Sequence record: LC788710.1
Reading direction: 5' to 3' (one strand)
Source of the DNA: Escherichia coli phage Wa28
Length of the DNA stretch: 64,000 nt
Below, in pieces: positions 1 to 26,729 of the stretch (its first letter is position 1; every line of letters starts with the position of its first letter). The position numbers and the translations under genes were made by a program. The notes under the pieces are model-generated. The model was not told the origin of the DNA, made no database searches, and saw only the letters and a list, made by a program, of their open reading frames with translations.

Positions 1-270
1 CTTATAGGTTTTCTTCTTGACTTTATCCAGCATCGTTTCAAGAACATTGAGAGGCAACTTCTGACCTTCAATATTCACGCCAAGCTCTTCCATTAGCATG
101 GTATTTAAGTCAATACGAGTAAGTTTCTTGCCCTTGCTAGACATACGAATTCCCGCCTTTTTCTCAAGTTTTGCACGCTCTGGTGAATCGAGGTCACGTA
201 ATGCGATGTTCAATTCATACGGAGCCATATTGTAATGGTTAGCCATCTGAGTATAGTAACGATCTGACAT
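1..270 (-). CDS. hypothetical protein, N-terminal part only (gene runs past window start)
   Basis: Open frame on minus strand starting at ATG 268-270 (MSDRYYTQMANHYNMAPYEL...), GAGGAG SD upstream, promoter module just upstream; not in ORF track because truncated. Confidence 0.4.
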   Translation of the reverse strand, partial: MSDRYYTQMANHYNMAPYELNIALRDLDSPERAKLEKKAGIRMSSKGKKLTRIDLNTMLMEELGVNIEGQKLPLNVLETMLDKVKKKTYK

Positions 271-303
271 TTGTGAAACTCCTCTGATTCAATTTATATA
301 AAT

Positions 304-332
304 ATTATATAAAAATTTCAGCGGAAAGTCAA
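304..332 (-). promoter_or_regulatory. sigma70-type early promoter (-35 TTGACT, 17 bp spacer, -10 TATAAT)
   Basis: Reverse complement of 304-332 gives TTGACT-N17-TATAAT followed by conserved ATTTATATAAATTG start region. Confidence 0.6.
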
Positions 333-345
333 CTACTTTTTTATA

Positions 346-762
346 TTAGTGTGCTTGATGTGGGAATCTCTTCCTAACTAAGTACATAGTTATTGGATAT
401 ATTGAATACATAAGTATAGGGGAGAAAAGGGTGAAATAAGCCGTGACTCCCCCAGCTAACATTAGTGGTATCAATGCTAGAGTAAGGGCCATAAGAATCA
501 TACCGAATGAGACAGCCAGGGCTACTGTGATGCAGTTCTCTAACTCCATCCAAAGCCAACAATATTTCGTATTCCTCTGGCAGTTGCATTTGCAAACGCC
601 GAATGTGCCCATAATTATATACTCTAGCCCATGAACGACTTTCTTTAATGTATCATTTTGGGTAACTAGTGCGACAACAGTGAGAATTATCATTAAGATG
701 AAAATTACTAGGCTTATTTTCCATATTCCTAGTAATATCATGGTGAATAGTTCTGCAAACAT
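346..762 (-). CDS. small integral membrane protein (several predicted TM helices), downstream of endolysin
   Basis: ORF track 138 aa; hydrophobic stretches ILLGIWKISLVIFILMIILTVVALV and others. Confidence 0.5.
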   Translation of the reverse strand: MFAELFTMILLGIWKISLVIFILMIILTVVALVTQNDTLKKVVHGLEYIIMGTFGVCKCNCQRNTKYCWLWMELENCITVALAVSFGMILMALTLALIPLMLAGGVTAYFTLFSPILMYSIYPITMYLVRKRFPHQAH

Positions 763-837
763 GGCTTTCTCCTATCATTAAGTTTTTAAAGCCCCCTTTG
801 CTTTAAAAGGCGGGAATTACCCCGCCTTGATTTATTA

Positions 838-1251
838 TCAGACTAATTCTACGTGACCACCGTCGTAAGTACCACGATCGATCTCATCATGATAATCACC
901 AGAACTATTCCAGTCGGCACCAAAACGAAGTTTGACACCAAGTTCCTTACCGGCTTGTTCAAAAGCCTTCTTAACAGCCCAAAATGCTTCCAGATCTTTC
1001 CAATCAATCTTTCCATTAATATATGGTGCAAAATCGATAGCGTCTCCAGTTACATGCTTACTCTTGCTAGGGTCTTTCAAAAATGAAGTACCATTAGCAA
1101 TGTTTTGGGCACTTTGTGCTACTGTACGAATACCCTGTACGATTGTGAAATCATATGGAGATAATTCTAAAGCCCTACGAGCTACCTTTTGTAGCTCGGG
1201 CTTAACAGTTGCTAATTGTTTTTCGCTATTTTTACCAAATTTAAAACTCAT
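838..1251 (-). CDS. lys: endolysin, L-alanyl-D-glutamate peptidase (M15 family zinc peptidase)
   Basis: 137 aa; motifs HVTGDAIDF and DGGHVEL typical of M15 peptidases; size and position match T5 endolysin. Confidence 0.75.
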   Translation of the reverse strand: MSFKFGKNSEKQLATVKPELQKVARRALELSPYDFTIVQGIRTVAQSAQNIANGTSFLKDPSKSKHVTGDAIDFAPYINGKIDWKDLEAFWAVKKAFEQAGKELGVKLRFGADWNSSGDYHDEIDRGTYDGGHVELV

Positions 1252-1904
1252 ATAGATCTACCTAATGATCTCCGTTGTGGGGAACAGAGCTTTGCTAAGT
1301 ACTCATTAAATTGTTCCGAATCAGCTGTATCTACGGGTTTATCCTTCCATGCAATACCTATGTATCCAGCATAGATATTATTTAGGTTGAAATATGGACA
1401 AGTGTAGACGTAATTAAAAGTAATGTTCTTAAATGCTGGTATATTTGACCCTGTATATTTATTTACTTTTACACTTAAATCCGCAGCGTAGTTAAAGCCT
1501 TCCAGGTGACGTCTATAAAGTTCAGACGTCTTATTTACTGCTTTATCGGCCAAGTCAGCCCTATCCAATTGCGCATTGCTTTCCCATGCAATAATGTTTG
1601 AATAATCATTTATAGCATCTGGTTTATACTTTACTACAAAAACGGCATCCGCACCAGTCTGGGAGAAAAGAACCATACTCTTTTCTCGTGCTACATTAGG
1701 AAAGTTATCTATCCTTTGGGTTTGAACATCCTGTAAAACCGAAGACGTGGAGAAAGTCTTTAAAAATGACATCACCTCGCTAGTGTTACTTACAAACAAG
1801 AAAATAATGACAGCAACTAAGATAGTTAGCAGACGTTTTAGTAGTGAAGCTGGATCTTTCGCTTCTTGTAGCAGTATCGTTAATAGTTGTATAAACTTTT
1901 CCAC
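1248..1904 (-). CDS. holin-like membrane protein immediately upstream of endolysin
   Basis: 218 aa, N-terminal TM helix (LLTILVAVIIFLFVSN), 4-nt overlap with endolysin start. Confidence 0.5.
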   Translation of the reverse strand: MEKFIQLLTILLQEAKDPASLLKRLLTILVAVIIFLFVSNTSEVMSFLKTFSTSSVLQDVQTQRIDNFPNVAREKSMVLFSQTGADAVFVVKYKPDAINDYSNIIAWESNAQLDRADLADKAVNKTSELYRRHLEGFNYAADLSVKVNKYTGSNIPAFKNITFNYVYTCPYFNLNNIYAGYIGIAWKDKPVDTADSEQFNEYLAKLCSPQRRSLGRSI

Positions 1905-2014
1905 TTGTAACCTCCTCTAACCACTACCATTATACTAATTCTAGAGTAAAATTACAATGTGTTTTTTAAGATCACTTCTGGAGCACAATTTTTTGTCGTT
2001 GTCAAGAAGAATTT

Positions 2015-2050
2015 TAGGCAAAAGAAAAGCCAGAGTCGTTAAACTCTGGC
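2015..2050 (-). terminator. rho-independent terminator (minus strand)
   Basis: Inverted repeat GCCAGAGT..ACTCTGGC followed on minus strand by T-rich run. Confidence 0.5.
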
Positions 2051-2060
2051 TTAAAACTAC

Positions 2061-2660
2061 TTACACTTCTCCATGTTCTTCTGGATGCGGGGCTTGAGCT
2101 TTACTACACTGCTCTTTACGATAATTCGCCAAAATTTCAATACGCTTATTGATTTCTTTGCTGTTGAGATAGATATTCTTATTCTCTTTTACCATGTCCT
2201 CGATTTCGTCGACAGAGAAGAACGGAAAGTAAATATCTAGCATCATATCTTCTACAAACTGGTTGTAGGATTCATATGCTTTCTTGATTTCTTGACCTTT
2301 CTCGCAGAATCCGCCAGAGAACGTATGTCCCATAAGCGTAGCATGTGGATGTACAACCCAACCGTGGCAAGATAGGAAGATTGTGCAGTAAGCAGAAGCA
2401 CTAGGACCGAGTAGGTGTCCAATAACAGTTCCACGACAGTTAGCGATTAGGTTAGATAGTTGTGCAGCAGTATCAACGTAACCACCCGGCCCATTAATCA
2501 TCAGATTAATTTCATCATCTTCACCAGCCTGCATCAGTATCATGGATAGGTCACGATACTCATCCGGTGAGCCTAATTCTTCATCAAAGAAAAAGGTATA
2601 TTCGTTAGATTGGCGAACAGTGTGAAACAGGTTAGTCTTTTCTTCTTTCTTGTTAGTCAT
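2061..2660 (-). CDS. ClpP-like serine protease
   Basis: 199 aa; ClpP-like core (MINGPGGYVDTAAQL ... GHTFSGG). Confidence 0.6.
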   Translation of the reverse strand: MTNKKEEKTNLFHTVRQSNEYTFFFDEELGSPDEYRDLSMILMQAGEDDEINLMINGPGGYVDTAAQLSNLIANCRGTVIGHLLGPSASAYCTIFLSCHGWVVHPHATLMGHTFSGGFCEKGQEIKKAYESYNQFVEDMMLDIYFPFFSVDEIEDMVKENKNIYLNSKEINKRIEILANYRKEQCSKAQAPHPEEHGEV

Positions 2661-2672
2661 AGTGATCCTTAA

Positions 2673-3425
2673 TTATCCAACTAGTGGTTCTAGCTCTAAG
2701 TCACAGAAGTGGTACACATCGGTACGAAGTGCATCAAGTCCGTTGAAGGTATTCTCAAATTTATGAGAAATATATTTTTCAGGAATACCGCTTTCAGACG
2801 GATGATCTGTCTCGATGCGATACTTATTAGTAATACCAGATTCAACCTTAATAAGCATGGAATCCATATCTAGAGTATTGGTTTCCATGATTAGTTCTCC
2901 CTCATTGGGGAAACGCACATCGGTAACGATTGCGACGTCTGGGTCGTCTTTATCGATGGATTGCTCCAGAATTATGAGCCAAATGCGTTCATGCACCAGC
3001 TGCCTTCCTAACTCAGTACCTACAAGCTGTAGCATTTTTCTTGGGGAGATAAATACGCTATACAGCGCATCATCAGCTTGCCCAATTAACTGCTGAGGAT
3101 CAAGGTATTTTCCTTCAAATATCGGCCAAACGTACGAGAAGTCCTCAAACTTATCGATACCATACTTAAACCATACGTCTCTAGCTCGCTCCAATTGAGA
3201 TTGTGTGACTGTAAACCATTGGTCAATCTCTTTTCCCCTGCGCTCTCCCAGAAACTCTGGAGTTACCCCGAGGATTACGGATGCAAGTTCGTAAACGGGT
3301 TTAGCAAAACTGTAACGACGGGATAAACACGTTGGGAACGTGTCATTACACCAGTCAATCATTAATTCTGCAACGGTATCTTTTCCCGCACCAGCCTCAC
3401 CATGTAAACCGACTAATACTGACAT
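2673..3425 (-). CDS. dnk: deoxynucleoside monophosphate kinase
   Basis: 250 aa; P-loop GLHGEAGAGKDT at N-terminus; typical position in T5-like phages. Confidence 0.7.
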   Translation of the reverse strand: MSVLVGLHGEAGAGKDTVAELMIDWCNDTFPTCLSRRYSFAKPVYELASVILGVTPEFLGERRGKEIDQWFTVTQSQLERARDVWFKYGIDKFEDFSYVWPIFEGKYLDPQQLIGQADDALYSVFISPRKMLQLVGTELGRQLVHERIWLIILEQSIDKDDPDVAIVTDVRFPNEGELIMETNTLDMDSMLIKVESGITNKYRIETDHPSESGIPEKYISHKFENTFNGLDALRTDVYHFCDLELEPLVG

Positions 3426-3778
3426 TAATCTTTCCTATTTGTAATGGGTGGATAGTAAACTAAGCAACGTTTTTCTTGTAAATCTTGACGATAGAAGCAA
3501 ACCATACCAGTCAGTCGTGAAATGTAAGAGTAAACTGCTTCCTCGCATTTTGCTTTTGCATTCCAATCTTTGTAAGGTACAACAACTACTACGCCATCTT
3601 CGCCATTCGTAGCTAATTTCTTTTCGAATTTGAAATCAAAGCTACACGGCTGAAGTCCTTTAGGCCAGTCAACATGGGCTTGCTTTAACTCATGTGAAGG
3701 CTCTGGTTTTATTTCTTCTGCACAGCCTGTGATTGTGATTGCGGCTGCGAGCAGTACTCCAAGTTTCCAGTTAAGCAT
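3425..3778 (-). CDS. lipoprotein, candidate outer-membrane spanin (Rz1-like)
   Basis: Signal peptide with lipobox LAAAITITG-C; overlaps 3' end of the upstream TM/coiled-coil ORF out of frame. Confidence 0.5.
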   Translation of the reverse strand: MLNWKLGVLLAAAITITGCAEEIKPEPSHELKQAHVDWPKGLQPCSFDFKFEKKLATNGEDGVVVVVPYKDWNAKAKCEEAVYSYISRLTGMVCFYRQDLQEKRCLVYYPPITNRKD

Positions 3779-4158
3779 GCTAATCTTTCCTCGAACTCCT
3801 TACTCTGCTTTTTAGCAATTAATGTAACCAATCCAGGCTTTGCAGCTATAATGTCTTGACGACTAAGTGCTTTATCAAGCTGACTAATTTTCTTGTCTAG
3901 ATCTGCTTGGGAAACATTATTCATTGTGAAATACTGATTCATACGAGTTTCACGAAGTTCACTTTCAGCTTTCACATTATTAAGGGAAGTCTCTAGGGAC
4001 GTAATCTTTTTAGTAGCTACTGCAAGATCACCTGCTAGAGTCTCAACCTTATTTACTAAGTGATAAGCACCGAATCCGATACCTATCGCAAGACCAGCTC
4101 CCAGGATATACCACTTACCTTGCCATATTCCTGAAAGAAGTTTTTGTATCAAATCCAT
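3709..4158 (-). CDS. membrane-anchored coiled-coil protein, candidate inner-membrane spanin (Rz-like)
   Basis: 149 aa; N-terminal TM (YILGAGLAIGIGFGAYHLV) then charged helical region. Confidence 0.5.
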   Translation of the reverse strand: MDLIQKLLSGIWQGKWYILGAGLAIGIGFGAYHLVNKVETLAGDLAVATKKITSLETSLNNVKAESELRETRMNQYFTMNNVSQADLDKKISQLDKALSRQDIIAAKPGLVTLIAKKQSKEFEERLACLTGNLEYCSQPQSQSQAVQKK

Positions 4159-4813
4159 GTGCTGCTAACCTGTCTTTATCTGATACGGTAATCATATCAG
4201 GCTCACCAGTTCCTAGTACACCGAAGATATACTGTTCGAGAACTTGGTGTAAACGGTATAAGTTACTTTCAATTTCCTGCCACGGAATACCTGACTGGTG
4301 GAAACGAATGTTTGTCTGAATTACGAAGTTACGAACATCATCGTTATCGTTCTTCTTAATACCTTTCACATATGCAATTGGTACGCGCAGTTCAGATAAG
4401 ATACGTTCTGCTTTAGGTTTTGCTTCAACCAACATATCTCGCATGGTTTCACGAACATCACCACGATTCTTGTCTAGTAAGTAAGAACGGGCATGTAATC
4501 CCATTTCTTCCATTTTATCAAATACAGCATCGATGTTGAACGTTTTGAAACTGAATGCCGGATGCCAGCAGGACAGCTCATGTAACCAGTAAACTTCACC
4601 TGCAATAAACAGCGGATTTACTGAGTATTCGAAATCACCACGGAAGGATAAGGAACCTTCACGAAACACCTGACGATTATGAACAATATTCTTTTCTACA
4701 TCGTCGGTTACTTTTACTCGCAGCTCTTCAGTTTTACGCTCCCAGACACGATCTGGATCAAATAAACTATTCTGCAAATCGTATACATCATTGAACTTTG
4801 AAATGATTCTCAT
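4115..4813 (-). CDS. hypothetical protein
   Basis: ORF track 232 aa, consistent strand and spacing. Confidence 0.5.
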   Translation of the reverse strand: MRIISKFNDVYDLQNSLFDPDRVWERKTEELRVKVTDDVEKNIVHNRQVFREGSLSFRGDFEYSVNPLFIAGEVYWLHELSCWHPAFSFKTFNIDAVFDKMEEMGLHARSYLLDKNRGDVRETMRDMLVEAKPKAERILSELRVPIAYVKGIKKNDNDDVRNFVIQTNIRFHQSGIPWQEIESNLYRLHQVLEQYIFGVLGTGEPDMITVSDKDRLAAHGFDTKTSFRNMAR

Positions 4814-4958
4814 AAATTATCCTTTTGCCTCAATCTATAAACATATTATACAATACTTGTGGCATCTGAGCAACTGAAATTTTATTACAAAAATAGCCCA
4901 GTCGCAAAATTGCAGGCTGGGCTTTGTCATTATTATTCTTGCTAGGAGGTGATTATCA

Positions 4959-5348
4959 TCACTCTTGTTTACTTAATTCTCTAGCACGACGTAGCGATCC
5001 AGCGGTTCTCCATAGTTTAATGTCGTCAACAACTTCTTTGTAGGGAGCAATAGTAAGACCTAGCGGCCCCGCTACCAACAGTCCAAAGAAACCAATTACA
5101 CGCATGTAAAGCAAGCATTCTTTGGGAGTCATTGACTGGACAGCCTGTCTTTCCTCAGCACTGTCGAACTCGTGTTCTCGATCGTCTAAACGTAGGTACT
5201 TAATAAACCATTCAGCAGAATATTCATCCAGATGACGAATAACTGCAATAGCATAGCCTAAACCAATAATAAACCATGCTGCTACAATGAATAAAATAAA
5301 GCTCATGATATCTCCAGTTAAAGTTGAGGTCAGCGACCAACTCACCAC
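4959..5348 (-). CDS. hypothetical membrane protein
   Basis: 129 aa with two hydrophobic helices. Confidence 0.5.
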   Translation of the reverse strand: MVSWSLTSTLTGDIMSFILFIVAAWFIIGLGYAIAVIRHLDEYSAEWFIKYLRLDDREHEFDSAEERQAVQSMTPKECLLYMRVIGFFGLLVAGPLGLTIAPYKEVVDDIKLWRTAGSLRRARELSKQE

Positions 5349-5708: not shown

Positions 5709-5998
5709 TTAAGATCCTTTTCATCAATTAGAATAGTAACAAACAATGGTACACAACCTGGGCACAAATCTTTACCAAACTTTTCCATCACATCCCAAAG
5801 TGGTAAAGTAATCACACCATTCTTAACTCTAGAATCTGTATACTCAGCTATTCGTTTATTTGCAAAATCAGTAGCTAAATCTGAGTTATGCTCGTAGCTA
5901 TAATCAGTCCAGAATTTAACATGATCCTTTCTAAGATATTCTAGCACAGCATCAGTTGCTGGAATCTGTACTAGACTGTTGAGATTTAGCTCTTTCAC
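5705..5998 (-). CDS. hypothetical protein
   Basis: ORF track 97 aa. Confidence 0.45.
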   Translation of the reverse strand: MKELNLNSLVQIPATDAVLEYLRKDHVKFWTDYSYEHNSDLATDFANKRIAEYTDSRVKNGVITLPLWDVMEKFGKDLCPGCVPLFVTILIDEKDLK

Positions 5999-6449
5999 GT
6001 TCTTCTCTCCGACGTTTGCGTTCTTTCATCATGTAAGCTGCTACAACTTCATGGTAGTAGTCGTTAATGTTACCTTCAGGCAAGAAATGCTTAATCGTTT
6101 CTAGCTGGCAGACAACACGGTAAAGATGTTTATTTGGTAAACATAATTTCATGCCCATAACAAATCCAGAGAAGCCTGGAACACTGAACATGGGTTGGGC
6201 TTCTACGTTGCCCTCTGGATTGATACTAAGTTCAATCGAGATGCCCATTTTCATGCTATAAAGCTGACAGCCTTCACCATTGCCAAATCTTGACCAAACA
6301 GTGAAGTCCTCATCTATCTGATCTTGGATTTCTTCGACTGCATGTTTAATTCTAGGGTCTAAATTACTCATCTTCACCTTCAAAGCCGCAGTCATAACGG
6401 CAAGTAAAAGAATCAGAACTATTAGTACGTTGAGTAGTGATTTCACCAC
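5952..6449 (-). CDS. hypothetical protein (N-terminal TM, basic C-terminus)
   Basis: ORF track 165 aa. Confidence 0.45.
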   Translation of the reverse strand: MVKSLLNVLIVLILLLAVMTAALKVKMSNLDPRIKHAVEEIQDQIDEDFTVWSRFGNGEGCQLYSMKMGISIELSINPEGNVEAQPMFSVPGFSGFVMGMKLCLPNKHLYRVVCQLETIKHFLPEGNINDYYHEVVAAYMMKERKRRREERERAKSQQSSTDSSN

Positions 6450-22217: not shown

Positions 22218-22292
22218 TGGCCGAGGTGACAGGATTCGAACCTGCATAAAGGAATTTAGAAGACTCCTGCCTATCCCTTAGACTACACCCCG
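22218..22292 (-). tRNA. tRNA-Arg (anticodon TCT), manual call
   Basis: CAGGTTCGAATCCTG T-arm, anticodon stem-loop GGAGT-CTTCTAA-ATTCC, CCA end. Confidence 0.55.
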
Positions 22293-22299
22293 TTTAGGT

Positions 22300-23130
22300 A
22301 TTTTTAAGAACTCTTATAAAAGCTCTTAAAGATACCAGACGGTAGGTAGGGTCAGCCCCCTCAGATTAAGCTCTGCAGCCCTTCCGTCAGACAATATCTT
22401 CCAGTTTAAGTCAGGGTGACTTTGTGGTTATGTTCTCCGTATGTGAAGAACTCGGTTAGGCTTAGGTCATGACTCCCAGCCTACTGCTGCCGCTCAACAG
22501 GAATTATCGCGAATTACCTGTACTATTGGGCACCATTAGTGACATCTCTCATGTCAGCGTTTCCCACTCTCATATTCACGCGGTCTGTTAGAATCGCACC
22601 TCCGATTTTCGATGCGAAGCTGGATGCCTAGTCTCAGGTTAAACGGGGCACACACTAGGCAGTGATCCCGAGTTCCGAGTTTGGTTGAGGCCGTCAGGTT
22701 TCCTCGTGGTTTAGCTGTTTCGATTCTAACCTAATACTGATCAGGTGGCGTACCTCCTGAACCGTCATAGTATGTACTCCAGCAGCGAATGCTTATCCGG
22801 TATAAGCCCGAGTTATCTGATTCTTTCCGACCGCAGGATTCGAACCTGCATCTTCCACCAGTTACGGTTTGATATTACCGTTTATACTAGGACGGCAGTG
22901 TTATCACATAAGTCAGTTCGACACCCCACTAACATAAACTAGAGAAGAGTTTACGAGATTTCGGGACAGCTCCCGAGTTTTCCGCAGATTTTCAGTTCCC
23001 TATCAATAGCAATAAGCGTTAGCTCGTAGCCTCTCTCAGAGTACTTACTAGTCTCCAACTCACCGACTCTATTCAGTGGAATAGCTATCCTAGTAGGAAT
23101 CACTAAACTCACTCAGCGTAATCGGCTCGC
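22300..23130 (-). ncRNA. ~0.8 kb promoter-driven region without ORFs; candidate structured noncoding RNA(s) with a tRNA-like T-arm element
   Basis: No minus-strand ORF of 60 aa or more; early promoter at 23152-23180 points into it; GCAGGTTCGAATCCTGC element near 22826-22850; locally higher GC. Confidence 0.35.
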
Positions 23131-23151
23131 TGTTCTCTAATTTATGAATCT

Positions 23152-23180
23152 ATTATACAGAATTTTGAGGCGTTTAGCAA
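23152..23180 (-). promoter_or_regulatory. early promoter directed into the noncoding region
   Basis: Conserved module (-35 TTGCTA, 17 bp, -10 TATAAT). Confidence 0.6.
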
Positions 23181-23188
23181 ATCAATTT

Positions 23189-23632
23189 TTAATTAAATTC
23201 GCCAGCAACCTGAGCAGCAATGCCACCGTCGTAACGACCAGGAAACTCTTCCTTAATCGCTTTCATCAGCATACCTTTTGTAATCCCAGGGTTCAACTTA
23301 ACTAATTCTGCAAAGTATTTGCGAATCTCAGAATCAGATAACTGAGGCGGCAGATACTGTTGTAGCCATTTGTTCAGTATATACTCATACTGAGCAGACT
23401 GCAAGCTATAATTATCAAGGTCTTGACCGTGAAGTTTAGCTTTCGTCTGATTAATGCTTTTCAGTTGAGCTTTTAGATAAGATACAAACTGTTCAGAAGT
23501 AATGAAGTCTTTATCAACACGCTGAAGATCTCCGATTATGGTCTGGTAGCTTTTAGCTACTTCTTTATCAGAACCATCAACCTTAGATTCCTGCAAAGCC
23601 CTACGCAAAACATCTAGAATATTCTCTTCCAT
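23189..23632 (-). CDS. GatB/YqeY-domain protein
   Basis: 147 aa; overall similarity to YqeY family, C-terminal GGIAAQVAGEF. Confidence 0.5.
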   Translation of the reverse strand: MEENILDVLRRALQESKVDGSDKEVAKSYQTIIGDLQRVDKDFITSEQFVSYLKAQLKSINQTKAKLHGQDLDNYSLQSAQYEYILNKWLQQYLPPQLSDSEIRKYFAELVKLNPGITKGMLMKAIKEEFPGRYDGGIAAQVAGEFN

Positions 23633-23802
23633 TATTTAATTCCCAGTGCTTGGTTAAAAGATTGTTCTGTCATAACTGCCGAGACTTTAGCGAAATCAAA
23701 CTTCTTAGGGTTTGTAGTAATTTCAGCAACGTTAGTAGTTTTAACTGTTTTCGTAGTACGGATACCACGAGTATTAACACCAATAATTACAACTGATTTC
23801 AT
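23632..23802 (-). CDS. small ORF (56 aa) missed by ORF track
   Basis: ATG at 23800-23802 with GAGAGG SD; stop overlaps ATG of downstream gene. Confidence 0.35.
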   Translation of the reverse strand: MKSVVIIGVNTRGIRTTKTVKTTNVAEITTNPKKFDFAKVSAVMTEQSFNQALGIK

Positions 23803-23833
23803 ATTTCGCTTCCTCTCATTAATTTATGAAAGT

Positions 23834-23862
23834 ATTATACAGAAATTTAAGGCTTTAAGCAA
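23834..23862 (-). promoter_or_regulatory. early promoter
   Basis: Conserved module. Confidence 0.6.
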
Positions 23863-23870
23863 TCGAATTT

Positions 23871-24338
23871 TTAAGTTTTCTTAACCACAGGCTTGTAGAA
23901 CGTATGGCCTTGAATCTTCGTTGTTTTCTTAAACTTCTTTGTCCAGTACGGTTTATCTTTACCACTATGGAAGTATAACGCTCCATGTGTTGGATCTTGT
24001 GGTAAATCAACGTAGTATATCACTCTAGCTAAATTCTTAGCAACTTGCCAAGCCTCATCGGTTTTATCAACTTTTGGTCTCTTGGCCACCCAAGAGAACT
24101 GGTTAGACTGATATACTACTTTACAGTAAGAATCAGGAAAAGTACCAGAGTTAACACGGTTTTTAGTAACCTGTGCAACTGCGATCATTCCTTTAGTGCC
24201 CTCACCTCGTGCTTCGAAGTAGATATTTTTTGCAATGCAATCAATCTGCTTTGAGTCGTAGGTCGCATGACTATTGAAGCTATAGGTTAGGGCAGCTATT
24301 AAAAGCAAAGCTGCCTTCATTTTATTTACTCCGGCCAA
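23871..24338 (-). CDS. secreted SleB-like cell wall hydrolase domain protein
   Basis: 155 aa; signal peptide; NIYFEARGEGTKGMIAVAQVTKNRV...FPDSYCKVVYQSNQFSW. Confidence 0.6.
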   Translation of the reverse strand: MAGVNKMKAALLLIAALTYSFNSHATYDSKQIDCIAKNIYFEARGEGTKGMIAVAQVTKNRVNSGTFPDSYCKVVYQSNQFSWVAKRPKVDKTDEAWQVAKNLARVIYYVDLPQDPTHGALYFHSGKDKPYWTKKFKKTTKIQGHTFYKPVVKKT

Positions 24339-24643
24339 TCGTACTCAATACGATTAGGGCTTTCTTGATACCCTTCGTCTAAGAGATCATTACGCATGGT
24401 CTCTTTAGCTACTGGGTTCGAGGTTACTAGTACCACTTTCTTGGGTCTCTGACCAAATTCTAGGAGTAAACGAAGAATTTGATAACCTTCCATACCATCT
24501 ACAGCCAGATCGTTATCCATATAAACGAAATGACCTGTGGTATCGGTTTTATTCAGAAACTCAACAGCGGCTTCGGGGGTTCGAATGATAATGTCCATTC
24601 CATGAAGGTTACGCACATCATCAATCAGAATATGAAAAATCAT
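24326..24643 (-). CDS. hypothetical protein
   Basis: ORF track 105 aa. Confidence 0.45.
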   Translation of the reverse strand: MIFHILIDDVRNLHGMDIIIRTPEAAVEFLNKTDTTGHFVYMDNDLAVDGMEGYQILRLLLEFGQRPKKVVLVTSNPVAKETMRNDLLDEGYQESPNRIEYDWPE

Positions 24644-24673
24644 AATAGCCTCGTCTCATCAATTTAAAAATAT

Positions 24674-24702
24674 ATTATACAGAAAACTAAACTAATTAGC
24701 AA
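24674..24702 (-). promoter_or_regulatory. early promoter
   Basis: Conserved module. Confidence 0.6.
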
Positions 24703-25082
24703 ATACATTTTTAAATTGAGAGACTAGTAAACCGATAAACAGCCTAGAGGCGCCACAGGCCATATCTTATGAGCCATGTACCTTTGATCTAGGGTTTGAA
24801 TCATCAACGAATACTTTGCATCTTTTAGCTTTAGAAGGTTAGAAGTTTGAGTGCTTTTAACTTTTCAGCTTTCATACTTGAGCGTTGATCTTTGAAGTTG
24901 TGTTGGTACTACCAACGACCGTTTTTACAGTTCAGCTTAAGAGGCTGGTGTAATAAACATAATCTCCAATAGATTATACTTTATAGTATGGTCAGCGGTC
25001 TTATTTAACCTCGTATTTCAACCGCTGCTGCGAGGTAAGATGCTTGGGCTTTCGTCTACCGATTTACTAGTCTTTTAAATTA

Positions 25083-25721
25083 TTACTCTACTTCGATAAA
25101 AGTAGAGGCGTTGGACTCAGATAGAACAAAGTCAACGTTAGTTGCAAAGTCCTGGTACTCTTCGTCGTGTTGCTTGATCAGCTTTTCCAGCCCCAGCGGA
25201 TCGATCAGGAACGGAGTGTTCTTGAGTTCCAGCAGGTTAAGCTGCATCTTAACTTCATCCTCGGAAGTCTTCTTGTCGCGGGTAGCCATGGTATCCTGCA
25301 AACGCTCATACTTAGCATCAAACTGAGCTTTCTGAGTGTTAAACTTAACAGTAGCAGCATGGAACTGCTTACGCATGTTAGCCAGCAACTGAGCTTTGAG
25401 TTCCATAGAACGCTTAGCTTCGATTGCTTCCGCAACAGTCATAGAGCGCGAACCGATCTCTACAACAGTTTCAGCATTGCTCTTGATCAGCGCAGCTTTC
25501 AGACGATCACGCTGGGACATCATATCCAGCAGAGACTGGAAATCAGTCTTAATACGGGTAGACAGAGCATCTACTTCGATTGCAGCGCCAACGACAACTT
25601 GGTTCTTGTCCTTACCTTCACCAACAGCGATCAAAAGCTGTTGTTCAGTAGCTTTACGGATTTTAGCTTCCAGAGACTTGATAGTTGCCAGAGCACGAGT
25701 TTTAGAGATACGAGTAGTCAT
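25083..25721 (-). CDS. hypothetical coiled-coil protein
   Basis: ORF track 212 aa. Confidence 0.5.
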   Translation of the reverse strand: MTTRISKTRALATIKSLEAKIRKATEQQLLIAVGEGKDKNQVVVGAAIEVDALSTRIKTDFQSLLDMMSQRDRLKAALIKSNAETVVEIGSRSMTVAEAIEAKRSMELKAQLLANMRKQFHAATVKFNTQKAQFDAKYERLQDTMATRDKKTSEDEVKMQLNLLELKNTPFLIDPLGLEKLIKQHDEEYQDFATNVDFVLSESNASTFIEVE

Positions 25722-25774
25722 TATTTGCTTCCTTATATGAAGTTTGAGATTTGAATTTGTTTAAAAACGGCCTA

Positions 25775-25957
25775 TTACAGACCGATTGCCAGCATAGTGT
25801 GCAGAACAGTATCAGAACTGTTATCAATATTCGGATTGGCGCGATTCAGTACATTAAAGATTTTCTGGATGCCGGACTGACGTTCAGCCATACGACGCAG
25901 ACCCAGGTTACGTTTTGCTACTTTACCATTTTTACGGACGTTTTTAGATACTGGCAT
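25775..25957 (-). CDS. small basic protein
   Basis: 60 aa; AAGGAAA SD upstream. Confidence 0.4.
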   Translation of the reverse strand: MPVSKNVRKNGKVAKRNLGLRRMAERQSGIQKIFNVLNRANPNIDNSSDTVLHTMLAIGL

Positions 25958-25997
25958 AATTGTTTTCCTTTTGTTGTTCTCTCAAATTTATGAATAT

Positions 25998-26026
25998 ATT
26001 ATACAGAATTTTGGAGCTGAAAGCAA
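25998..26026 (-). promoter_or_regulatory. early promoter
   Basis: Conserved module. Confidence 0.6.
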
Positions 26027-26027
26027 A

Positions 26028-26729
26028 TCAAATTTTGATTTTTTCGATCATGACGGCTACACAATAACTTTCAACTAAAGCATCGAATGCTGGATCATGC
26101 TTCACAGGATAGATTCCATAACGAATGGTGTCCATCTTTTCCATTTTAGCTTTTGCCCAGCTAGCACCTTCGGCTTCTAGATCTTTATAGCTATAACCAG
26201 CTTGCATCCACTGATTACGGAAAGATCGAACGTTACCTAAGTTCCAGAATTTCCACGGAACTATTTCTTCATGGGTTCCGGCATGGAACGTATTTGCAGA
26301 GTAGATTGTCATATCAAACTCTGGGCCATTGCCGTAGTACAGAGCATTATCTCCTAGAGACAATTCCATAATGTTCTGAGCCATAGAGAAGGCAGCATAA
26401 TTAGAGCCTACGTCATTAGTGCAGTGATGCTTACCATCACGGAAGGCAATCAGTTTAGGATTACGACCATTTAGAGCCTCCATAATATGGAGCGCAGATG
26501 GACTGTTTTTAGCTTGATCCATCCAGAATGCAATAGTAGAGGCAGTTACCTTAGCACCCGCATTAAGCTGATCTTGAACGTCTAGAGTAACGAATACCAG
26601 ATCAGGATCTTTATCAATTCCGTGCATCGCTACAAAAGCGAAAGAAGGCATTGCAATATGAGTAGTACCGCAATTTCCTGGAGTACCTAGAGATTCAATG
26701 TCCAGCATACCAAAGGGCTTGAATTTCAT
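26028..26729 (-). CDS. hypothetical protein, possibly DEDD-type exonuclease-like
   Basis: 233 aa; N-terminal FGMLDIESLG resembles Exo I motif; weak. Confidence 0.4.
   Translation of the reverse strand: MKFKPFGMLDIESLGTPGNCGTTHIAMPSFAFVAMHGIDKDPDLVFVTLDVQDQLNAGAKVTASTIAFWMDQAKNSPSALHIMEALNGRNPKLIAFRDGKHHCTNDVGSNYAAFSMAQNIMELSLGDNALYYGNGPEFDMTIYSANTFHAGTHEEIVPWKFWNLGNVRSFRNQWMQAGYSYKDLEAEGASWAKAKMEKMDTIRYGIYPVKHDPAFDALVESYCVAVMIEKIKI

What the first reader, a model, noticed from the sequence alone, without database searches (positions are those of the whole stretch)
23871..24338. Secreted SleB-like cell wall hydrolase separate from the endolysin
The protein has a cleavable signal peptide and the SleB/Hydrolase_2 signature (NIYFEARGE...AVAQVTKNRV...FPDSYCKVVYQ). 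An exported amidase-like enzyme is unusual alongside a cytoplasmic M15 endolysin. It could act in cell wall remodelling, superinfection exclusion or lysis timing.
Basis: partly seen in the sequence, partly recalled or inferred. Interest (0 to 1): 0.4.

Follow-up and report, generated by a model that had tools for sequence, protein, structure and literature searches.

The report
Exported SleB-like wall enzyme of T5-like phage
This is a real gene for a small cell-wall-cutting enzyme that a T5-like phage exports into the host periplasm. It is already annotated in hundreds of related phages, so it is ordinary, although nobody has shown what it does during infection.

Summary
Window 23871..24320 (minus strand) encodes a 149-aa protein; the likely start is the ATG at 24320, not the TTG at 24338.

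- **Family:** it matches Pfam Hydrolase_2 (SleB/CwlJ) over the whole domain (E=4e-26).
- **Structure:** the model (pLDDT 93) matches only the Bacillus SleB catalytic domains.
- **Active site:** the catalytic Glu (E36) is invariant.
- **Export:** a 19-residue leader has a conserved -3/-1 signal-peptidase site, which supports Sec export and cleavage.

- SleB enzymes are lytic transglycosylases, not amidases.
- The M15 endolysin, holin and spanins lie about 23 kb away, not alongside.
- The pairing is not unusual. The window is a T5-like Epseptimavirus and the gene is the T5.083 orthologue. About 520 phage records carry it, roughly as many as carry the T5-type endolysin.
- GenBank already annotates it as "cell wall hydrolase; Signal Peptide", and papers from 2012 to 2024 discuss it.
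- Exported or membrane-anchored single-domain relatives occur in rV5-like, Pakpunavirus and Menderavirus phages, and as chromosomal genes of Alphaproteobacteria.

Most likely it is an early-expressed, holin-independent periplasmic glycan-strand cleaver that is accessory to the peptidase endolysin. Its biological role is untested. Already known; low interest.

The parts
23871..24320 (-). CDS for the SleB-like (Hydrolase_2) precursor: 149 aa plus stop. Orthologue of T5.083 and Sw2 CPT_Sw2_122.
   Evidence: ORF list. Pfam PF07486 E=4e-26. PHROG 938. 100% identical to proteins of Salmonella phage 1-29 and Klebsiella phage 150049. dN/dS 0.097 against the T5 orthologue.
24264..24320 (-). Codons 1-19: predicted Sec signal peptide MKAALLLIAALTYSFNSHA, with cleavage predicted after Ala19.
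   Evidence: Hydrophobic core and a conserved -3/-1 pattern across divergent leaders. GenBank note 'Signal Peptide' for the Sw2 orthologue. Cleavage itself is inferred.
23874..24263 (-). Mature domain, residues 20-149: 130 aa, 15.0 kDa, pI 9.7. It forms a single SleB/CwlJ-type catalytic domain.
   Evidence: AlphaFold2 model with pLDDT 93.3 and pTM 0.83. Foldseek hits only SleB 4f55/4fet, TM 0.72-0.78 normalised to the target. Physicochemical values.
24213..24215 (-). Codon of Glu36, the predicted catalytic general acid in the motif Y-F-E-A-R-G-E.
   Evidence: Invariant in 62 aligned homologues. Aligns with the first Glu of YGESRGE in SleB 4f55/4fet. The codon was read directly.
24237..24239 (-). 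Codon of Cys28, one of two invariant cysteines.
   Evidence: Invariant in alignment A1. The aligned Bacillus SleB position is Leu. Pairing in a disulfide is inferred.
24123..24125 (-). Codon of Cys66, the second invariant cysteine.
   Evidence: Invariant in alignment A1. The aligned Bacillus SleB position is Ser. Pairing in a disulfide is inferred.
24329..24332 (-). Shine-Dalgarno GGAG, 8 nt upstream of the ATG at 24320.
   Evidence: Sequence. Conserved in T5 and Bas26. Annotated as an RBS in Sw2.
24326..24643 (-). Upstream co-transcribed gene: 105 aa, cREC_REC receiver-like domain, T5.084 orthologue. It probably has no functional link to the wall enzyme.
   Evidence: Pfam PF20274 E=1.1e-14. 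Its stop lies 5 nt before the SleB-like ATG.
24674..24702 (-). Sigma-70 promoter-like site TTGCTA-17-TATAAT, probably driving the two-gene unit cREC plus SleB-like.
   Evidence: Consensus scan, 10 of 12 matches. T5 has a promoter annotated at the same position upstream of T5.084. Function and early timing are inferred by orthology.
23834..23862 (-). Promoter-like TTGCTT-17-TATAAT just downstream of the SleB-like stop. It corresponds to T5 promoter 'P-D/E 33' and starts the next unit.
   Evidence: Sequence. T5 annotation. No terminator-like site lies between the gene and this promoter.
838..1251 (-). Canonical endolysin, T5 Lys type (M15 peptidase family), with no leader sequence. Included for contrast.
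   Evidence: Pfam Peptidase_M15_4 and VanY. ORF list. Annotated as endolysin / L-alanyl-D-glutamate peptidase in relatives.
1248..1904 (-). T-type holin, overlapping the endolysin start. Part of the lysis cassette, about 23 kb from the SleB-like gene.
   Evidence: Pfam Phage_holin_T E=8e-111.
3425..4158 (-). Overlapping o-spanin (3425..3778) and i-spanin (3709..4158) genes.
   Evidence: ORFs. Assigned by position from the Sw2 annotation.

Best explanation
The gene encodes a small exported peptidoglycan glycan-strand cleaver of the SleB/CwlJ (Hydrolase_2) family. It is a conserved accessory gene of T5-like phages and is distinct from the phage's endolysin.

**Proposed sequence of events**
1. 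The gene is transcribed by host RNA polymerase from an early-type sigma-70 promoter, as the second gene of a two-gene unit (inferred by orthology with T5).
2. The 149-aa precursor is translocated by Sec and cut by signal peptidase I after Ala19 (predicted).
3. The 130-aa basic domain folds in the periplasm, probably locked by a Cys28-Cys66 disulfide (inferred).
4. Glu36 acts as the single general acid that cleaves MurNAc-(1,4)-GlcNAc bonds in a lytic-transglycosylase reaction (inferred from SleB).

Because it reaches the wall without the holin, it is pre-positioned in the periplasm well before lysis. I consider it most likely an auxiliary muralytic enzyme that cuts glycan strands. That is a different bond from the peptide-stem bond cut by the holin-dependent M15 endolysin. 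It would thereby loosen or help clear the sacculus, with its activity too low or too restrained to lyse the cell on its own.

The identity and location steps are well supported. The role in infection is a reasoned guess.
For: **Family and fold**
- Pfam Hydrolase_2, 92 bits, full-length match.
- PHROG 938.
- Sequence hits to SleB 4f55/4fet at E~1e-8.
- High-confidence model (pLDDT 93.3) whose only significant PDB matches are the SleB catalytic domains.

**Active site**
- E36 is invariant across 62 homologues. It aligns with the Glu described as essential in SleB and in a SleB-like T6SS toxin (PMC12331253, PMC11148199).

**Export**
- The leader is conserved in character, and its cleavage site is conserved while its residues vary.
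- The h-region is too short (13 residues) for a membrane anchor.
- Two cysteines are invariant, and Bacillus SleB has neither at those aligned positions.

**The gene is functional**
- dN/dS is 0.097 against T5.083.
- It is present in about 518 records, against 526 for the endolysin and 547 for the polymerase.
- It keeps its position in distant Demerecviridae, DU_PP_V and PSTCR5.

**Not part of the lysis cassette, and in the early region**

**SleB-like domains can act on Gram-negative walls**
- The CB7_83 homologue, which has a signal peptide, is toxic when expressed in E. coli (PMC7344957).
- The T6SS effector T6EC3 rounds and bursts E. coli unless its Glu is mutated.
- Deleting Zymomonas SleB alters peptidoglycan and cell morphology.
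Against: - No enzymatic, localisation or genetic data exist for this protein or for T5.083 in the literature searched.
- Bacillus SleB needs muramic-delta-lactam, which enterobacterial walls lack, so the substrate here is unknown.
- An exported wall-cutting enzyme made early should be harmful, yet infection proceeds to normal timed lysis. No inhibitor or control mechanism was identified.
- The T5 CRISPRi-ART screen scored T5.083 'Not Fit'. That fits a dispensable accessory role. However, the screen also scored lys and several replication and virion genes 'Not Fit', so it is uninformative.
- Early timing rests on promoter consensus and T5 annotation, not on expression data for this phage.
- No signal-peptide predictor could be run.
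Confidence: 0.6

Rival explanations
1. It is a true second endolysin of the Sec-exported type, like Lys44 of Oenococcus phage fOg44. It would accumulate in the periplasm in a latent state and be activated when the holin collapses the membrane potential. That would give lysis capacity redundant with the M15 enzyme.
For: - It is exported and has an intact active site.
- PHROG and RefSeq label the family 'endolysin'.
- A homologue is toxic in E. coli.
- Knock-down of T5 lys gave no fitness signal while holin knock-down did, which would fit redundancy.
Against: - It is not linked to the holin or spanins.
- It sits in an early-region transcription unit.
- The CRISPRi-ART T5 screen is insensitive, so the lys result is weak.
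- T5 Lys is treated as the endolysin in every annotation seen.
Confidence: 0.2
2. It remodels the wall for a purpose other than lysis. Examples are hindering genome entry by superinfecting phages, altering envelope structure during infection, or releasing muropeptides.
For: - Its position in the early region and its holin-independent export put it in the periplasm long before lysis.
- Its nearest cellular relatives are housekeeping-type chromosomal genes of Alphaproteobacteria, a group that includes the Zymomonas SleB implicated in wall remodelling.
Against: - No evidence was found for any such phenotype.
- Similar genes occur in many unrelated virulent phages with different entry routes.
Confidence: 0.13
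3. It is a catalytically dead or non-muralytic periplasmic protein that only binds peptidoglycan or another ligand.
For: - The SleB substrate determinant, muramic-delta-lactam, is absent from the host.
- No activity has ever been shown for this protein.
Against: - The catalytic Glu and the surrounding motif are invariant under strong purifying selection.
- The fold is preserved.
- Related domains are toxic in E. coli in a Glu-dependent way.
Confidence: 0.05
4. It is a virion-associated lysin used to pierce the wall during infection.
For: Many phages carry such enzymes.
Against: - A cleavable Sec leader sends the protein out of the cytoplasm, where virions assemble.
- It lies in the early region, far from the structural genes.
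- It is not among the four AKFV33 virion proteins identified, although that proteome was shallow.
Confidence: 0.02

Closest known systems
T5.083 of phage T5 and its orthologues in Markadamsvirinae (e.g. Sw2 CPT_Sw2_122, Bas26_0074, AKFV33 ORF81)
   Same: Same gene. Identity is 87-100%, the length is the same (149 aa), and the neighbours (cREC gene upstream, DUF7616 and YqeY-like genes downstream) and promoters are the same.
   Different: Nothing of substance. Small differences lie in the leader and a few surface residues.
Bacillus SleB catalytic domain (PDB 4f55, 4fet), a germination-specific lytic transglycosylase
   Same: Same fold (TM 0.72-0.78 normalised to the target), the same catalytic Glu motif and the same C-terminal G-x-H-x-F-Y motif.
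   Different: - About 30% identity.
- No N-terminal peptidoglycan-binding domain.
- Far below the SleB equivalog cut-off (54 against 236.5 bits).
- The host has no spore cortex and no muramic-delta-lactam.
- It has two invariant cysteines where Bacillus SleB has Leu and Ser.
- It is made by a phage of Gram-negative bacteria.
Exported or membrane-anchored single-domain SleB-like proteins of other virulent Gram-negative phages (rV5/FV3 ORF002, PVP-SE1 gp243, Pectobacterium CB7_83, Pakpunavirus Henu5 gp85, Stenotrophomonas Marzo gp207)
   Same: - Single Hydrolase_2 domain behind an N-terminal leader or anchor.
- Located away from the main endolysin.
- CB7_83 is reported to have a signal peptide and to be toxic in E. 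coli.
   Different: - 35-41% identity.
- Different cysteine patterns.
- Henu5 has a longer N-terminal hydrophobic segment (about 20 uncharged residues) that looks more like an anchor than a cleavable leader.
- The phage backbones are unrelated.
Chromosomal SleB-like proteins of Proteobacteria (Sphingomonadales, Rhodobacterales, Chromatiaceae; Zymomonas mobilis SleB)
   Same: These are the nearest cellular relatives (up to 47% identity), and they share the C-[LI]-A-x-[NA]-I-Y-x-E motif. The Zymomonas enzyme affects wall cross-linking and cell shape.
   Different: - They are cellular housekeeping genes, not viral ones.
- No DNA-level match was found in 5,426 complete E. coli genomes, so the gene was not recently taken from the host.
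Sec-exported endolysins with cleavable signal peptides (fOg44 Lys44 type) and SAR endolysins (P1 Lyz, phage 21 R21); comparison from my own knowledge
   Same: They reach the wall without a holin channel.
   Different: - Those are the phage's main lysis enzyme and sit in the lysis cassette. This gene is neither.
- Its leader does not look like a SAR domain.

Membership tests
Pfam Hydrolase_2 (PF07486; SleB/CwlJ catalytic domain) | HMM score above the curated gathering cut-off over the whole domain | tested here: met
   92 bits against a cut-off of 27, E=4e-26, profile positions 1-100 of 100.
Pfam Hydrolase_2 (PF07486; SleB/CwlJ catalytic domain) | SleB-type catalytic-domain fold | tested here: met
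   Model with pLDDT 93.3. Its only significant PDB matches are 4f55 and 4fet: E 4e-6 to 1e-5, TM 0.72-0.78 normalised to the target.
Pfam Hydrolase_2 (PF07486; SleB/CwlJ catalytic domain) | Conserved catalytic glutamate | tested here: met
   E36 is invariant in 62 homologues. It aligns with the first Glu of YGESRGE in SleB.
Pfam Hydrolase_2 (PF07486; SleB/CwlJ catalytic domain) | Peptidoglycan glycan-strand cleavage (lytic transglycosylase chemistry) | not testable with these tools
   This needs muropeptide analysis of the purified protein.
SleB proper (NCBIfam TIGR02869 equivalog, spore cortex-lytic enzyme) | Score at or above the equivalog cut-off | tested here: not met
   54 bits against a cut-off of 236.5. 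[quoted passage not shown]
SleB proper (NCBIfam TIGR02869 equivalog, spore cortex-lytic enzyme) | N-terminal peptidoglycan-binding domain in front of the catalytic domain | tested here: not met
   Only Hydrolase_2 was found. The domain begins right after the 19-residue leader.
SleB proper (NCBIfam TIGR02869 equivalog, spore cortex-lytic enzyme) | Acts on muramic-delta-lactam cortex peptidoglycan in a spore former | not testable with these tools
   The hosts of the related phages are Salmonella, Escherichia and Klebsiella, which form no spores. Substrate specificity is untested.
Canonical holin-dependent endolysin | Encoded in the lysis cassette with the holin and spanins | tested here: not met
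   The holin, M15 endolysin and spanins lie at 838..4158. This gene is at 23871..24320, among early and tRNA-region genes.
Canonical holin-dependent endolysin | No export signal; accumulates in the cytoplasm | tested here: not met
   An N-terminal leader is present and conserved.
SAR endolysin | Uncleaved, weakly hydrophobic N-terminal transmembrane domain of about 20 residues, rich in Gly/Ala/Ser (definition from my own knowledge) | tested here: not met
   The h-region is 13 residues and dominated by Leu/Ile/Ala. It is followed by a conserved small-x-Ala site, so it is of the cleavable type. Rule-based reading only; no predictor was run.
Sec-exported endolysin with cleavable signal peptide (fOg44 Lys44 type) | Cleavable N-terminal signal peptide on a muralytic domain | tested here: met
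   Met by sequence features and comparative conservation only. Cleavage has not been shown.
Sec-exported endolysin with cleavable signal peptide (fOg44 Lys44 type) | Is the enzyme responsible for host lysis | not testable with these tools
   Needs phage genetics. The CRISPRi-ART data are uninformative.

The most novel reading that the evidence does not exclude
The exported SleB-like enzyme and the M15 endolysin may form a two-enzyme division of labour. In relatives the endolysin is annotated as an L-alanyl-D-glutamate peptidase, which strips peptide stems. That would leave glycan strands carrying only L-Ala stubs. From my own recollection, this resembles the stem-poor cortex that Bacillus SleB is specialised for. 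The pre-positioned periplasmic transglycosylase would then chop these strands.

If so, it could act as a partly redundant, holin-independent lysis factor. That would explain why T5 lys knock-down gave no fitness signal. It would be a conserved second lysis arm in a classic model phage.
Probability: 0.12. Interest if true: 0.5.

Novelty: already known. Interest (0 to 1): 0.18.

Why it matters
The finding matters little as a discovery. The gene, its family and its signal peptide are already in public annotations, and the "two lysins" situation in T5-like Salmonella phages has been discussed in print.

What remains open is biological. Several unrelated groups of large virulent phages of Gram-negative bacteria keep an exported SleB-like enzyme in addition to their endolysin, under strong purifying selection, and nobody has shown why. 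T5 is a tractable model, so a deletion mutant plus a muropeptide assay would answer this cheaply. The enzyme is small, basic and single-domain. It may therefore interest people who develop lysins against Gram-negative bacteria.

Tried and rejected
1. **Functional data on T5.083.** Searches by locus tag, accession numbers and keywords found no functional study. The accession search used YP_006911 plus three further accession numbers that I guessed and did not verify.
2. **Genome-wide essentiality studies.** HIDEN-SEQ and the transposon study do not cover T5-like phages. CRISPRi-ART covers T5 and scores T5.083 'Not Fit'. It also scores lys and several replication and virion genes 'Not Fit', so I did not use it as evidence of dispensability.
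3. **SleB-like genes travel with T5-type M15 endolysins.** Rejected as a general rule. SleB-like genes occur in 192 Pseudomonas phage records, but the T5-type endolysin occurs in only 22.
4. **Functional link to the upstream cREC receiver-domain gene.** This was not established. No upstream gene is annotated next to the hydrolase gene in DU_PP_V, and the PSTCR5 upstream protein does not resemble the cREC protein by eye; neither was scanned against Pfam. The cREC family is described as RNA cyclic-phosphate processing.
5. **Recent capture from the host.** No DNA match was found in 5,426 complete E. coli genomes. The nearest cellular relatives are Alphaproteobacteria and Chromatiaceae at 47% identity or less. 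A protein-level search of E. coli was not available.
6. **SAR domain, lipoprotein or membrane anchor.** Rejected on leader length and composition, and on the absence of a Cys in the leader.
7. **The TTG start at 24338.** Rejected in favour of the ATG at 24320.
8. **Other ORFs in the interval.** The + strand ORF 24045..24254 and the out-of-frame ORF 23855..24010 (-) were treated as chance ORFs. They lie inside a gene under strong purifying selection and are not annotated in any relative.

Full report
**What the window is.** The 4-kb stretch around the finding is 99% identical to Salmonella phages Sw2, Stitch and OSY-STA and to Escherichia phage GreteKellenberger (Bas26). All are Epseptimavirus, Markadamsvirinae, Demerecviridae, that is, T5-like phages. 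The window carries 29 tRNA genes on the minus strand, and its gene order follows the T5 early region.

**The observation.** An ORF runs from 24338 (TTG) to 23871 on the minus strand.
- The TTG lies within the last codons of the upstream gene, whose stop is at 24326..24328.
- An ATG at 24320 is preceded by GGAG at an 8-nt spacing. The same arrangement is found in T5 and Bas26.
- Every public annotation uses the resulting 149-aa protein. I therefore place the gene at 23871..24320 (-).
- The protein is 100% identical to proteins of Salmonella phage 1-29 and Klebsiella phage 150049. It is the orthologue of T5.083 (searches show the annotated names).

**Family.**
- Pfam Hydrolase_2 (PF07486) matches the full model at 92 bits (cut-off 27, E=4e-26).
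- PHROG 938, labelled 'endolysin', matches at E=2e-30.
- The NCBIfam SleB equivalog is matched only over its C-terminal half, at 54 bits against a cut-off of 236.5. So the protein has the SleB catalytic domain but is not SleB itself; it has no N-terminal wall-binding domain.
- Sequence search of the PDB finds only the SleB catalytic domains of Bacillus cereus and B. anthracis (E~1e-8).
- An AlphaFold2 model built on 62 homologues has pLDDT 93.3 and pTM 0.83. By Foldseek it matches only those same structures (E 4e-6 to 1e-5, TM 0.72-0.78 normalised to the target). The next hit has E>1.
- In the alignment C28, Y34, E36, G44, V48, R55, C66, V68, Q74 and H139 are invariant.
- E36 aligns with the first Glu of YGESRGE in SleB. 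From the chain offsets this corresponds to Glu157 (B. cereus) and Glu151 (B. anthracis), numbers I recall from the structure papers. A catalytic Glu is reported as essential for SleB (PMC12331253) and for a SleB-like T6SS toxin (PMC11148199).

**Export.**
- The N-terminus MK-AALLLIAALTYSF-NSHA|TYD has the three regions of a Sec signal peptide. The 13-residue hydrophobic core is too short for a membrane anchor and unlike the Gly/Ala-rich SAR domains. There is no lipobox cysteine.
- Among close orthologues there are 18 distinct leaders. The residues vary (for example SSQA|S, PAYA|T, NVQA|Q, NTFA|S, AIA|S, HAQA|K), but most keep a small residue at -3 and Ala at -1.
- Of 116 homologues, 104 have a hydrophobic N-terminal leader. 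Most of the others look like truncated gene calls.
- The two invariant cysteines are replaced by Leu and Ser at the aligned positions in Bacillus SleB. This fits a disulfide formed in an oxidising periplasm, but I could not measure the distance in the model.
- The predicted mature protein is 130 aa, 15.0 kDa, pI 9.7.

**The gene is maintained by selection.**
- Against T5.083, dN is 0.060 and dS is 0.613, a ratio of 0.097.
- About 518 phage records carry a copy at least 60% identical. By comparison, 526 carry the T5-type endolysin and 547 the T5-type DNA polymerase at the same threshold. These are counts, not an exact intersection.
- The gene keeps its position in distant Demerecviridae, Pectobacterium DU_PP_V and Providencia PSTCR5.

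**Context.**
- The canonical lysis genes are about 23 kb away: endolysin at 838..1251 (Peptidase_M15_4/VanY, no leader), T-type holin at 1248..1904, and spanins at 3425..4158.
- The SleB-like gene is the second gene of a short unit. A TTGCTA-17-TATAAT site at 24702..24674 lies where T5 has an annotated promoter. It is followed by a 105-aa cREC_REC receiver-domain gene (24326..24643), and then, 5 nt later, by the SleB-like gene.
- No terminator-like site follows. A TTGCTT-17-TATAAT site at 23862..23834 corresponds to T5 promoter P-D/E 33 and starts the next unit, which holds DUF7616 and YqeY-like genes.
- These are early-region promoters in T5. For this phage, early timing is an inference.

**Relatives elsewhere.**
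- Single-domain SleB-like proteins with N-terminal leaders or anchors occur in Vequintavirinae (FV3, PVP-SE1), Pakpunavirus (Henu5), Menderavirus (Marzo) and many other phages. In total 1,363 phage records carry one. In the five loci inspected the gene stood apart from any annotated lysis cassette.
- The CB7 paper reports a signal peptide on CB7_83, toxicity on expression in E. coli, and homologues throughout the Vequintavirinae (PMC7344957).
- A survey of phage lysins lists Hydrolase_2 among the domains typical of phages of Gram-negative bacteria (PMC8223927).
- The nearest cellular relatives (47% identity or less) are chromosomal genes of Sphingomonadales, Rhodobacterales, Rhodospirillales and Chromatiaceae. 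A 2026 preprint shows that the Zymomonas (Sphingomonadales) SleB affects growth, cell shape and wall cross-linking.
- There is no DNA-level match in 5,426 complete E. coli genomes.

**Prior knowledge of exactly this feature.**
- AKFV33 ORF81 was listed as 'cell wall hydrolase SleB', together with the lysozyme and holin, in 2012 (PMC3326045).
- A 2024 paper on T5-like Salmonella phages describes M15 endolysins next to the holin, plus SleB-domain 'endolysins far from holin', and asks which one the phage uses (PMC11180984).

**Mechanism.**
- *Supported:* an exported, processed, single-domain SleB-fold enzyme with an intact active site, conserved under purifying selection, transcribed apart from the lysis cassette.
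- *Inferred:* lytic-transglycosylase chemistry on the host wall, a disulfide, and early expression.
- *Guessed:* the role. I favour an accessory, holin-independent glycan-strand cleaver that complements the peptide-cutting endolysin.
- *Rivals:* a redundant Sec-exported endolysin; non-lytic wall remodelling, including exclusion of other phages; an inactive binding protein; or a virion lysin.
- *Genetic data:* the only data found are the T5 CRISPRi-ART screen. It scores T5.083 'Not Fit', but it also scores lys and several replication and virion genes 'Not Fit', whereas the holin is 'Fit'. It therefore does not discriminate between these readings.
- *Co-occurrence test:* SleB-like genes do not generally travel with T5-type M15 endolysins. 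There are 192 Pseudomonas phage records with the former and 22 with the latter.

**Verdict.** This is an ordinary, already annotated accessory gene of T5-like phages. The family and signal-peptide calls are correct. The chemistry ('amidase-like'), the proximity to the endolysin and the claim of unusualness are not. The unanswered question of what exported SleB-like enzymes do for virulent phages is genuine, but it is not new.

Noticed in passing
window 24326..24643 (-): The gene directly upstream of the SleB-like gene encodes a 105-aa protein matching Pfam cREC_REC (cyclic-phosphate processing receiver domain, E=1e-14). Its orthologues (T5.084, Bas26_0073, Sw2_123) are annotated only as hypothetical. 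It shares a promoter-like site with the SleB-like gene, and its stop lies 5 nt before that gene's start.
   Followed up: partly
L089 (PVP-SE1) 83..1120; L005 (Marzo) 4151..5260; L006 (Henu5) 1089..2297 and 5800..6387; window 22218..26729: In several unrelated phages the SleB-like gene lies within a few kb of RNA or DNA ligase genes. In T5-like phages it lies among a cREC gene, a YqeY-like gene, an Rv2179c-like exoribonuclease gene and tRNA genes. This may only reflect a shared early accessory-gene region.
   Followed up: no
window 26028..26729 (-): This 233-aa protein is annotated 'metallopeptidase' in GenBank records and 'exonuclease' in RefSeq records. It matches Pfam Rv2179c-like 3'-5' exoribonuclease (E=1.3e-7), so 'metallopeptidase' looks like a mis-annotation.
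   Followed up: partly
window about 22293..23150 (-): This stretch of about 850 bases next to tRNA-Arg(tct) has only short ORFs. It corresponds by position to the T5 'RNAX' stable RNA of unknown function.
   Followed up: no
T5 genome (PMC11879866, supplementary file 16): In the CRISPRi-ART screen of T5, knock-down of the holin (C1) was scored 'Fit', but knock-down of the endolysin lys was 'Not Fit', as was T5.083. This could reflect low screen sensitivity or redundancy between the two wall enzymes.
   Followed up: partly
window 25083..25721 (-) and the RefSeq records of relatives: RefSeq re-annotations label the T5.085 orthologue (212 aa, no Pfam hit; noted 'Coiled Coil' in the Sw2 record) as 'tail fiber protein' and the 52-aa T5.097 as 'tape measure protein'. 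Both sit in the early region, so the labels look like spurious PHROG name transfers.
   Followed up: no
window 1248..1904 (-): The holin is a full-length T4-type T holin (Phage_holin_T, E=8e-111), which in T4 has a large periplasmic domain. I did not look for an RI-like antiholin in the window.
   Followed up: no
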